Both the position numbers and the translations under genes were made by a program. The notes below the pieces were generated by a model that did not search any database, was not told the origin of the DNA, and saw only the letters and a list, made by a program, of their open reading frames with translations. Shown here piece by piece: positions 39,943 through 43,770 of a DNA stretch of 64,000 nucleotides; the first letter of the stretch is position 1; the number at the start of each line of letters is the position of its first letter. The stretch is from assembly GCF_009914755.1 (NCBI RefSeq), contig NC_060927.1; one strand, 5' to 3'. This stretch comes from the human T2T-CHM13v2.0 reference genome, Homo sapiens.

Positions 39943-42900
39943 ATGACAGGATCAAATTAACACATAACAATATTAACTTTAAATGTAAATGCACTAAATG
40001 CTCCAATTAAAAGACACAGACTGGCAAATTGGATAAAGAGTCAAGACCCATCAGTGTGCTGTATTCAGGAAACCCATCTCACATGCAGAGACACACATAG
40101 GCTCAAAATAAAAGGATGGAGGAAGATCTACCAAGCAAATGGAAAACAAAAAAAGGCAGGGGTTGCAATCCTAGTCTCTGATAAAACAGACTTTAAACCA
40201 ACAAAGATCAAAAGAGACAAAGAAGGCCATTACATAATGGTAAAGGGATCAATTCAACAAGAAGAGCTAAGTATCCTAAATATATATGCACCCAATACAG
40301 GAGCACGCAGTTTCATAAAGCAAGTCCTGAGTGACCTACAAAGAGACTTAGACTCCCACACATTAATAATGGGAGACTTTAACACCCCACTGTCAACATT
40401 AGACAGATCAACGAGACAGAAAGTCAACAAGGATACCCAGGAATTGAACTCAGCTCTGCACCAAGCAGACCTAATAGACATCTACAGAACTCTCCACCCC
40501 AAATCAACAGAATATACATTTTTTTCAGCACCACACCACACCTATTCCAAAATTGACCACATAGTTGGAAGTAAAGCTCTCCTCAGCAAATGTAAAAGAA
40601 CAGAAATTATAACAAACTATCTCTCAGACCACAGTGCAATCAAACTAGAACTCAGGATTAAGAATCTCACTTAAAGCCACTCAACTACATGGAAACTGAA
40701 CAACCTGCTCCTGAATGACTACTGGGTACATAACGAAATGAAGGCAGAAATAAAGATGTTCTTTGAAACCAATGAGAACAAAGACACAACATACCAGAAT
40801 CTCTGGGACGCATTCAAAGCAGTGTGTAGAGGGAAATTTATAGCACTAAATGCCCACAAGAGAAAGCAGGAAAGATCCAAAATGGACACCCTAACATCAC
40901 AATTAAAAGAACTAGAAAAGCAAGAGCAAACACATTCAAAAGCTAGCAGAAGGCAAGAAATAACTAAAATCAGAGCAGAACTGAAGGAAATAGAGACACA
41001 AAAAACCCTTCAAAAAATTAATGAATCCAGGAGCTGGTTTTTTGAAAGGATCAACAAAATTGATAGACCACTAGCAAGACTAATAAAGAAAAAAAGAGAG
41101 AAGAATCAAATAGACACAATAAAAAATGATAAAGGGGATATCACCACCGATCCCACAGAAATACAAACTACCATCAGAGAATACTACAAACACCTCTACA
41201 CAAACAAACTAGAAAATCTAGAAGCAATGGATACGTTCCTTGGCACATACACTCTCCCAAGACTAAACCAGGAAGAAGTTGAATCTCTGAATAGACCAAT
41301 AACAGGAGCTGAAATTGTGACAATAATCAATAATTTACCAACCAAAAAGAGTCCAGGACCAGATGGATTCACAGCCGAATTCTACCAGAGATACAAGGGG
41401 GAGCTGGTACCACTCCTTCTGAAACTATTCCAATCAATAGAAAAAGAGGGAATCCTCCCTAACTCATTTTATGAGGCCAGCATCATTCTGATACCAAAGC
41501 CGGGCAGAGACACAACCAAAAAAGAGAATTTTAGACCAATATCCTTGATGAACATTGATGCAAAAATACTCAATAAAATACTGGCAAACCGAATCCAGCA
41601 GCACATCAAAAAGCTTATCCACCATGATCAAGTGGGCTTCATCCCTGGGATGCCAGGCTGGTTCAATATACGCAAATCAATAAATGTAATCCAGCATATA
41701 AACAGAGCCAAAGACAAAAACCACATGATTATCTCAATAGATGCAGAAAAAGCCTTTGACAAAATTCAACAACTCTTCATGCTAAAAACTCTCAATAAAT
41801 TAGGTATTGATGGGACGTATTTCATAATAATAAGAGCTATCTATGACAAACCCACAGCCAATATCATACTGAATGGGCAAAAACTGGAAGCATTCCCTTT
41901 GAAAACTGGCACAAGACAGGGATGCCCTCTCTCACCGCTCCTATTCAACATAGTGTTGGAAGTTCTGGCCAGGGCAATCAGGCAGGAGAAGGAAATAAAG
42001 TGTATTCAATTAGGAAAAGAAGAAGTCAAATTGTCCCTGTTTGCAGACGACATGATTGTATATCTAGAAAACCCCACTGTCTCAGCCCAAAATCTCCTTA
42101 AGCTGATAAGCAACTTCAGCAAAGACTCAGGATACAAAATCAATGTACAAAAATCACAAGCATTCTTATACACCAACAACAGACAAACAGAGAGCCAAAT
42201 CATGAGTGAACTCCCATTCATAATTGCTTCAAAGAGAATAAAATACCTAGGAATCCAACTTACAAGGGATATGAAGGACCTCTTCAAGGAGAACTACAAA
42301 CCACTGCTCAAGGAAATAAAAGAGGATACAAACAAATGGAGGAACAGTCCATGCTCATGGGCAGGAAGAATCAATATCGTGAAAATGGCCATACTGCCCA
42401 AGGTAATTTATACATTCAATGCCATCCCCATCAAGCTACCAATGACTTTCTTCACAGAATTGGAAAAAACTACTTTAAAGTTCATATGGAACCAAAAAAG
42501 AGCCCGCATCGCCAAGTCAATCCTAAGCCAAAAGAACAAAGCTGGAGGCATCACACTACCTGACTTCAAACTATACTACAAGGCTACAGTAACCAAAACA
42601 GCATGGTACTGGTACCAAAACAGAGATATAGATCAATGGAACAGAACAGAGCCCTCAGAAATAACGCCGCATACCTACAACTATCTGATCTTTGGCAAAC
42701 CTGAGAAAAACAAGCAATGGGGAAAGGATTCCCTATTTAATAAATGGTTCTGGGAAAACTGGCTAGCCATATGTAGAAAGCTGAAACTGGATCCCTTCCT
42801 TACACCTTATATAAAAATCAATTCAAGATGGATTAAAGACTTAAACGTTAGACCTAAAACCATAAAAACCCTAGAAGAAAACCTAGGCATTACCATTCAG

Positions 42901-43770
42901 GACATAGGCATGGGCAAGGACTTCATGTCCAAAACACCAAAAGCAATGGCAACAAAAGCCAAAATTGACAAATGAGATCTAATTCAACTAAAGAGCTTCT
43001 GCACAGCAAAAGAAACTACCATCAGAGTGAACAGGCAACCTGCAGAATGGGAGAAAATTTTTACAATCTACCCATCTGACAAAGGGCTAATATCCAGAAT
43101 CTACAAAGAACTTAAACAAATTTACAAGAAAAAATCAAACAACCCCATCAGAAAGTGGGTGCCGGATATGAACAGACACTTCTCAAAAGAAGACATTTAT
43201 GCAGCCAAAAAACACATGAAAAAATGCTCATCATCACTAGCCATCAGAGAAATGCAAATCAAAACCACTATGAGATACCATCTCACACCAGTTAGAATGG
43301 CAATCATTAAAAAGTCAGGAAACAACAGGTGCTGGAGAGGATGTGGAGAAATAGGAACACTTTTACACTCTTGGTGGGACTGTAAACTAGTTCAACCATT
43401 GTGGAAGTCAGTGTGGTGATTCCTCAGGGATCTAGAACTAGATGTACCATTTGACCCAGCCATCCCATTACTGGGTATATACCCAAATGACTATAAATCA
43501 TGCTGCTATAAAGACACATGCACACGTATGTTTATTGCAGCATTATTCACAATAGCAAAGTCTTGGAACCAACCCAAATGTCCAACAACGATAGACTGGA
43601 TTAAGAAAATGTGGCACATATACACCATGGAATACTATGCAGCCATAAAAAATGATGAGTTCATGTCCTTTGTAGGGATATGGATGAAATTGGAAATCAT
43701 CATTCTCAGTAAACTATCTGAAGAACAAAAAACCAAACACCGCATATTCTCACTCATAGGTGGGAATTGA
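39943..43770 (+). pseudogene. L1 ORF2p (EN-RT-C-terminal), disrupted by nonsense codons
   Basis: Stops at 39958-60 (codon 6), 40672-74, 42973-75, 43417-19; 745-aa open stretch 40738-42975 includes RT QGCPLSP and FADD. Confidence 0.95.

What the first reader, a model, noticed from the sequence alone, without database searches (positions are those of the whole stretch)
40880..43590. Young L1 shares five non-consensus variants with two older neighbouring L1s
Seen: the L1PA2-like copy and the L1PA4/5 copy at 58478-62331 both encode KMDT (40884 / 58735), VIYTF (~42413 / 60781) and IFGKP (~42695 / 61063). The consensus I recall is KIDT, VIYRF, IFDKP. It also shares LLHSWW (43370 / ~23248) and CPTTID (43589 / ~23029) with the L1PA4 fragment at 22608-23326 (consensus LLHCWW, CPTMID). 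None is a CpG-decay change, and nearby sites still differ between copies. Inference: repeated short-tract gene conversion between L1s ~18-20 kb apart, or reads from the copies mixed during assembly or polishing.
Basis: partly seen in the sequence, partly recalled or inferred. Interest (0 to 1): 0.7.

Follow-up and report, generated by a model that had tools for sequence, protein, structure and literature searches.

The report
Neighbouring L1 copies swap short patches
A dead jumping-gene (L1) copy on human chromosome 3 carries a 181-base patch identical to an older copy 775 kb away and shares rare letters with two copies about 20 kb away, likely because DNA repair copied short stretches between nearby repeats, and rare L1 variants also cluster elsewhere in the genome, which suggests such copying is widespread.

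Summary
All five shared alleles are in the sequence. Four are rare genome-wide (0.35-1.9%). CPTTID is common (930 of 12,405) and weak evidence. The young copy shares 4 of 37 and 2 of 8 unusual alleles with its two neighbours, against 5 of 342 for distant copies. All 15 informative sites agree, and the next-best genome hit is 97%. At sites not chosen for sharing, carriers of one rare allele cluster about 4-fold out to 500 kb and not beyond. Fetched clusters were mostly independent insertions. Transversions to G/C cluster more than transitions (41 of 337 vs 12 of 266). Best reading: short-tract non-allelic gene conversion among nearby L1s. It is known for Alus within about 10 kb; the range and mismatch bias here look different. 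IFGKP and CPTTID may be coincidences. Reads and other assemblies could not be checked.

The parts
37957..43990 (+).
   Evidence: 96-97.5% to its 29 best relatives; 9-bp flanking direct repeat
43026..43206 (+). Conversion tract (minimum 43042-43167, maximum 43026-43206) identical to an older L1, D, at G000:C3:88175856-88176001 (+), 775 kb upstream (locus L048)
   Evidence: 100% over 146 bases, next best hit 97%; 0 differences in 181 bp, 15 of 15 informative sites A=D, A-D 92.1% overall; every other copy examined differs at 11 or more positions
58476..62333 (.). Copy B: older 5'-truncated L1 with an inverted 5' part (58476-59522 minus, 59523-62333 plus); partner for KMDT, VIYTF, IFGKP
   Evidence: 94.0% and 92.2% to A
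22626..23330 (-). Copy C: 3' L1 fragment; partner for LLHSWW and CPTTID
   Evidence: 93.5% to A; 9-bp flanking repeat
40879..40907 (+). KMDT allele (40884 G) in a 29-bp A=B run; partner near 58735 on the minus strand
   Evidence: 118 of 6,204 genome-wide; 18 of 98 other listed carriers have a same-allele carrier within 100 kb
42379..42475 (+). VIYTF alleles (42411 T plus 42413 C) in a 97-bp A=B run; likely B to A
   Evidence: 25 of 29 relatives of A have C at 42411; 20 of 98 other listed carriers cluster
42675..42704 (+). IFGKP allele (42695 G) in a 30-bp A=B run; conversion or coincidence
   Evidence: 51 of 7,440; 0 of 49 other carriers cluster
43288..43416 (+). LLHSWW allele (43370 C) shared with C; the long identical run lies in a conserved block and is not evidence by itself
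   Evidence: 43 of 12,141; 12 of 39 other carriers cluster after removing duplicate twins
43576..43610 (+). CPTTID allele (43589 C) shared with C; common allele, weak evidence
   Evidence: 930 of 12,405

Best explanation
The young L1 at 37957-43990 contains a 181-bp patch identical to an older L1 775 kb away and rare alleles shared with two L1s 18-20 kb away, most likely because germline DNA repair copied short tracts between nearby, only about 92-94% identical L1 copies after they had inserted (non-allelic gene conversion). Shown: the perfect tract, the rarity of four alleles, the excess sharing with neighbours, and distance-dependent clustering of rare L1 alleles elsewhere in the genome. Inferred: a break or nick in one copy is repaired by brief strand invasion into a physically close L1 in either orientation; tens to about 200 bases are copied without crossover; the direction is D to A for the long tract and probably B to A for VIYTF. 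VIYTF, LLHSWW and KMDT are likely conversions. IFGKP is about even odds and CPTTID is probably coincidence.
For: Tract: 100% identity to one locus on the same chromosome and strand, next best 97%. Only 6 exact genome-wide matches to a 40-mer of the tract, one being A and one D; the chance that 1 of the other 5 lies within 775 kb is 0.25% under uniform placement. 15 of 15 informative sites agree, with sharp edges and 92.8% / 89.8% identity on either side. Eight of these alleles are also seen in older copies (columns), which gives the direction. Control: two other variant-dense stretches of A have no such partner (best other hits 95-96%). Neighbour sharing 4 of 37 and 2 of 8 vs 5 of 342. Outside the window, 32 of 37 close pairs (7-100 kb) carry the same variant, permutation mean 10.5, max 22 of 20,000. 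Alleles not chosen for sharing, chr1-4: 12 of 30 pairs at 7-100 kb (mean 2.8), 34 of 99 at 100-500 kb (mean 9.5), 34 of 317 at 0.5-2.5 Mb (mean 30.1, p 0.24); 59 carriers with a close same-allele carrier vs 13.2 expected. Of 17 fetched LLHSWW carriers, all but two twin pairs are separate insertions at 91-97% identity without shared unique flanks. They share further rare alleles with neighbours at 10 per 20.6 kb vs 10 per 121.5 kb (permutation p 0.0002), while their overall identity is barely higher (94.3 vs 93.8%).
Against: No reads, other human assemblies or ape orthologues were examined, so the pre-conversion state is inferred. KMDT and IFGKP need tracts ending within 6 and 10 bases of the variant. 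IFGKP shows no clustering elsewhere (0 of 49) and the control site 43561 almost none (2 of 99). The long A=C run lies in a block where three other carriers also match perfectly and most copies differ at 1-3 positions. VIYTF, KMDT and control-site clusters were not fetched, so some close pairs there may be segmental duplicates (2 twin pairs among the 17 carriers that were checked). Lists above 100 matches were cut at 100. A-B sharing in 40097-40800 showed nothing.
Confidence: 0.82

Rival explanations
1. The five alleles are independent recurrent mutations or old lineage alleles, and the window was picked because such a coincidence occurs somewhere among many L1-rich windows.
For: CPTTID is 7.5%. 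IFGKP also occurs in an unrelated chrY copy and does not cluster. About 0.3-0.6 chance matches are expected per neighbour set. Very short identical runs.
Against: Cannot give 15 of 15 matching sites in the D tract, nor clustering at sites not chosen for sharing.
Confidence: 0.06
2. The exchange happened through RNA or cDNA: reverse transcriptase switched templates during A's insertion, or L1 cDNA or transcripts patched existing copies.
For: A short tract from an older L1 inside a young one is also what a double template switch would leave. cDNA-mediated conversion is reported for yeast retrotransposons (PMC6598467, passage seen).
Against: Diffusible RNA gives no reason for the donor to lie 775 kb away on the same chromosome or for decay with distance. 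No sibling copy carries the tract. Use of nascent, tethered transcripts is not excluded.
Confidence: 0.06
3. Assembly or polishing artefact: reads from other L1 copies altered the consensus.
For: Perfect identity in the tract is also what mis-polishing would give; not tested on reads.
Against: Mis-mapped reads should come from the many 97%-identical copies, not from 92-94% copies. No recalled assembly step depends on distances of 20-800 kb. Clustering depends on the type of base change.
Confidence: 0.03
4. Nearby copies are related by descent (local duplication, or a local source element), or a regional mutation bias makes the same change repeatedly.
For: 2 twin pairs among 17 fetched carriers are duplicates. 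Several G>C carriers lie on distal 8p, a region recalled as C>G-rich.
Against: A, B and C differ in length, orientation and by 6-8%. Neighbours are not more alike overall. The two G>C variants never pair with each other under 500 kb (0 of 4,018 cross pairs), so a regional spectrum does not explain it.
Confidence: 0.03

Closest known systems
Non-allelic gene conversion between neighbouring Alu elements (Aleshin and Zhi 2010; paper not held, known here from passages in PMC8230782 and PMC6598467)
   Same: Excess of identical non-diagnostic mutations between nearby copies, falling with distance; mosaic elements; old copies can overwrite young ones (PMC8230782 passages).
   Different: Those passages give a range of about 10 kb. 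Here the excess reaches about 500 kb and one donor lies 775 kb away. The elements are L1s. Transversions to G/C cluster more than transitions, and weak-to-strong changes cluster no more than strong-to-weak ones (16 of 196 vs 14 of 186).
LINE-LINE non-allelic homologous recombination causing CNVs (PMC4344489; abstract and passages)
   Same: Ectopic pairing of L1 copies within a few Mb on one chromosome.
   Different: That work reports crossovers needing about 96% identity or more and does not contain the word 'conversion'. Here non-crossover patches pass between copies of 92-94% identity.
Recombinant full-length L1s in HPRC assemblies (bioRxiv 10.64898/2026.05.14.725010; passages; supplements closed)
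   Same: Mosaic young L1s are recognised: 35 of 2,267 were called recombinant.
   Different: In the passages seen they were assigned to donor groups and filtered out; no donor locus or distance effect appeared. Whether copy A is among the 35 could not be seen.
Interlocus gene conversion in segmental duplications and LTRs (recalled; Trombetta 2016 seen only as a reference line)
   Same: Short tracts, dependence on distance and identity.
   Different: Substrates here are dispersed, independently inserted retrotransposon copies of different age.

Membership tests
Non-allelic gene conversion | A bounded tract in the recipient matches a paralogous donor while the flanks follow the recipient's own lineage | tested here: met
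   181-bp tract, 15 of 15 sites; A is 98.8% and 97.9% to its relatives' majority base on either side but 94.1% across the tract region
Non-allelic gene conversion | An identifiable donor locus, better than any other paralogue | tested here: met
   100% vs next best 97% among the 40 scored candidates; 6 exact 40-mer matches genome-wide
Non-allelic gene conversion | Non-reciprocal: donor unchanged, no crossover | tested here: inconclusive
   D keeps older-type alleles across the 1.5 kb read and A keeps its flanking direct repeat, but the other meiotic product cannot be seen
Non-allelic gene conversion | Partners are independent insertions, not duplicates | tested here: met
   A, B, C, D are 92-94% identical with different structure; 17 LLHSWW carriers checked, 2 twin pairs removed; other clusters not fetched
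Non-allelic gene conversion | Frequency falls with distance | tested here: met
   same-allele excess at 7-500 kb, none at 0.5-2.5 Mb for alleles not chosen for sharing
Non-allelic gene conversion | Event post-dates insertion (ancestral state seen in orthologues or other haplotypes) | not testable with these tools
   no ape or other human assemblies held
GC-biased gene conversion | Weak-to-strong alleles spread more than strong-to-weak alleles | tested here: not met
   16 of 196 vs 14 of 186 carriers with a close partner; G/C-to-C/G swaps highest, 25 of 180; few sites, low power
L1PA2 / L1PA4-5 subfamily labels | Match to subfamily consensus | not tested

The most novel reading that the evidence does not exclude
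Human L1 copies exchange short tracts with their neighbours genome-wide over a chromatin-domain scale (up to about 0.5-1 Mb), even at 92% identity, and the exchange is filtered by mismatch type so that transversions to G/C spread about three times more often than transitions. L1 variants would then be a fossil record of which templates germline repair reaches in 3D, and a systematic distortion of L1 ages and lineage trees.
Probability: 0.45. Interest if true: 0.8.

Novelty: new variant of a known kind. Interest (0 to 1): 0.6.

Why it matters
Ectopic conversion is usually measured in near-identical duplications or in Alus a few kb apart. A donor-resolved tract between 92%-identical L1s 775 kb apart, plus a distance curve from rare alleles, makes the reach, identity threshold and mismatch bias of germline ectopic repair directly measurable in one complete genome, using tens of thousands of copies. 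It also bears on dating L1 copies, on building source-lineage trees (which assume independent decay) and on clustered 'mutations' inside L1s. The locus itself has no annotated gene and no sign of function.

Tried and rejected
(1) Long identical runs as evidence for the A-C and A-B exchanges: rejected, they lie in conserved blocks. (2) Donors for the variant-dense stretches 41190-41270 and 41310-41430: none found, best other hits 95-96%. (3) Older L1 fragments in the window (68-81% identity) as donor of the 43042-43167 tract: they do not match it. (4) 'All rare alleles cluster alike': not so; 43561 alleles 2 of 99, IFGKP 0 of 49. (5) 'Simple GC bias': not met. (6) 'Transitions never cluster': overstated; 42490 A>G has three pairs under 10 kb, and its contrast with A>C at 7-100 kb is not significant (2 of 43 vs 11 of 87, p 0.22). 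With pairs counted once, transversions to G/C vs transitions gives p 0.025 and vs transversions to A/T p 0.10. (7) A PRDM9-type hot site or an endonuclease site as the cause of site differences: considered, not tested. (8) Literature: 10 full-text searches listed no genome-wide study of neighbour conversion among L1s. The library lacks most subscription papers and Aleshin and Zhi 2010 was not held, so absence from print is not shown. Single L1 conversion cases in older papers are recalled, not checked.

Full report
Observation. The window holds a full-length young L1 (A, 37957-43990, +), an older 5'-inverted truncated L1 (B, 58476-62333; 94.0% and 92.2% to A) and a 3' fragment (C, 22626-23330, minus; 93.5%). 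All five shared alleles are present at the stated places. A's 29 best genome-wide relatives (30 loci of the 40 hits, minus A itself) carry them in 0 of 25, 0 of 29, 0 of 29, 0 of 29 and 1 of 29 copies.

How rare. Exact-pattern counts over the whole assembly: KMDT 118 of 6,204, VIYTF 107 of 10,075, IFGKP 51 of 7,440, LLHSWW 43 of 12,141, CPTTID 930 of 12,405. Four are rare and CPTTID is common. I listed 39 sites where A differs from its relatives (CpG decay and the tract below left out). B matches A at 4 of 37 and C at 2 of 8, against 5 of 342 in 14 distant copies over 90% identical; four older panel pieces under 90% were left out of that rate. Without the two common alleles, 4 are seen against 0.27 expected. 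The window was selected for this pattern, so I looked for independent evidence.

A carries a dense run of foreign alleles at 43042-43167. A 40-mer from it has 6 exact matches genome-wide, including A and a locus 775 kb upstream on the same strand. The 146-base stretch matches that locus (D) at 100%; the next best of 40 scored candidates is 97%. Over 1.5 kb of D, A and D are 92.1% identical with 116 differences, none in 43026-43206, and all 15 informative sites in the run agree. Every other copy examined differs from A at 11 or more positions there. Eight of the 15 alleles are also seen in older copies and fit D's background, so the direction is D to A. Random placement of the differences gives such a run in 5 of 100,000 trials. 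Two other variant-dense stretches of A have no such partner, so a perfect hit is not generic.

Genome-wide pattern. With the window's own pair dropped, carriers of the same variant cluster: 32 of 37 pairs at 7-100 kb are same-variant, permutation mean 10.5 (duplicate twins not yet removed there). VIYTF 20 of 98, KMDT 18 of 98 and LLHSWW 12 of 39 (twins removed) have a same-allele carrier within 100 kb, but IFGKP 0 of 49. To avoid ascertainment I added 5 of the 8 sites drawn at random (41953, 42255, 42490, 42945, 43255; at 42255 only one allele, because I recalled the other as common in older copies), A's unshared site 43561, and the other alleles at 43370. On chr1-4, covered by every list, 12 of 30 pairs at 7-100 kb and 34 of 99 at 100-500 kb are same-allele (means 2.8 and 9.5; 0 of 5,000 permutations reached either), but 34 of 317 at 0.5-2.5 Mb (mean 30.1, p 0.24). 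Over all chromosomes listed, 59 carriers have a close same-allele partner against 13.2 expected. Lists longer than 100 were cut at the first 100 matches, and coordinates were copied by hand.

Duplication or common source? I fetched 17 LLHSWW carriers in 6 clusters. Two pairs are over 99.9% twins (8p23 and chrY); the rest align only within repeats, at 91-97%, with different truncations. Among 14 such copies, neighbours share further two-copy alleles at 10 per 20.6 kb against 10 per 121.5 kb for non-neighbours (permutation p 0.0002), while mean identity is 94.3 vs 93.8%. VIYTF, KMDT and control clusters were not fetched, so some duplicates may remain there. Some KMDT cluster members differ 6 bases from the variant, so these are not plain duplicates. 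The two G>C variants never pair with each other under 500 kb, which argues against a regional mutation spectrum.

Mismatch type. At 7-100 kb, unascertained transversions to G/C cluster in 41 of 337 carriers, transversions to A/T in 12 of 205 and transitions in 12 of 266 (p 0.0008 on carriers, 0.025 with pairs counted once). Same-site contrasts: 13 of 71 vs 4 of 100 at 41953, 12 of 39 vs 6 of 84 at 43370 (ascertained allele), 11 of 87 vs 2 of 43 at 42490 (not significant). Weak-to-strong and strong-to-weak changes do not differ. One inferred reason, from recalled knowledge of mismatch repair, is that transition mismatches are recognised best and trigger rejection or restoration of the ectopic heteroduplex, while C:C and some other transversion mismatches escape. 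This rests on seven sites and is a lead only.

Mechanism. Shown: a bounded, donor-resolved patch; excess sharing with neighbours in both orientations (KMDT matches B's inverted part, C is inverted, D and B's 3' part are direct); decay with distance. Inferred: germline break or nick repair by brief invasion of a physically close L1, with short synthesis and no crossover. Maximum tract lengths from flanking differences are 29 (KMDT), 97 (VIYTF), 30 (IFGKP), 129 (LLHSWW), 35 (CPTTID) and 181 bp (D). The 97 and 129 bp runs lie in conserved blocks and add no evidence by length. VIYTF carries a second B-type allele two bases away, which suggests B to A. I judge VIYTF, LLHSWW and KMDT likely conversions, IFGKP even odds, CPTTID probably coincidence.

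What is known. Passages of PMC8230782 and PMC6598467 describe neighbour conversion among Alus within about 10 kb, citing Aleshin and Zhi 2010, which was not held. PMC4344489 (abstract and passages) covers LINE-LINE crossovers needing about 96% identity. A 2026 preprint (passages; supplements closed) removed 35 recombinant L1s of 2,267 without naming donor loci in the passages seen. Passages of PMC8232201, PMC5237266 and the HPRC2 preprint added nothing specific. Ten searches listed no genome-wide study of neighbour conversion in L1s; the library lacks most subscription papers.

Verdict. It works like Alu neighbour conversion and meets the testable features of non-allelic gene conversion. It differs in element, range (to about 500 kb, one donor at 775 kb), low identity (92%) and a possible mismatch-type bias. 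Artefact is unlikely but untested on reads. Interest 0.6; new variant of a known kind.

Noticed in passing
window 62189 region of B and the matching position of C (A coordinate 43841): B and C, about 39 kb apart, share an allele found in no other copy of the panel; possibly a further neighbour exchange.
   Followed up: partly
window 41403: A carries an older-type allele also in B and in 4 older panel copies but in only 1 of 28 near relatives; could be another short patch from an older L1.
   Followed up: partly
window 41200-41243 and 41320-41413: Twelve differences from near relatives in about 210 bp with no donor found; unexplained local excess of changes.
   Followed up: partly
window 43443-43444 and 43719-43720: Two adjacent-base double substitutions in A, absent from 29 relatives.
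   Followed up: no
G000:C4:99.14-101.33 Mb and G000:C23:61.92-62.83 Mb: Seven and six carriers of the VIYTF allele within about 2 Mb and 1 Mb, suggesting stepwise spread through a region.
   Followed up: no
site equivalent to window 42490: The A>C transversion (87 of the first 100 listed of 119) is more frequent than the A>G transition (43 in all), the reverse of usual mutation rates; spread by conversion or a lineage allele.
   Followed up: no
L038, L039, L041 (G000:C8:2.08-2.56 Mb) and L043, L044 (G000:C11:5.43-5.46 Mb): Neighbouring copies share several extra rare alleles, three of them within 80 bp in L043/L044: candidate tracts.
   Followed up: partly
window 58476-62333: B is a 5'-inverted L1 with the junction at 59522/59523; a roughly 13-bp flanking repeat with one mismatch was read by eye.
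   Followed up: partly
window 3813-8147, 15446-18220, 23649-25739: Much older L1 remnants (about 70-76% identity to A); not donors of the tract.
   Followed up: partly
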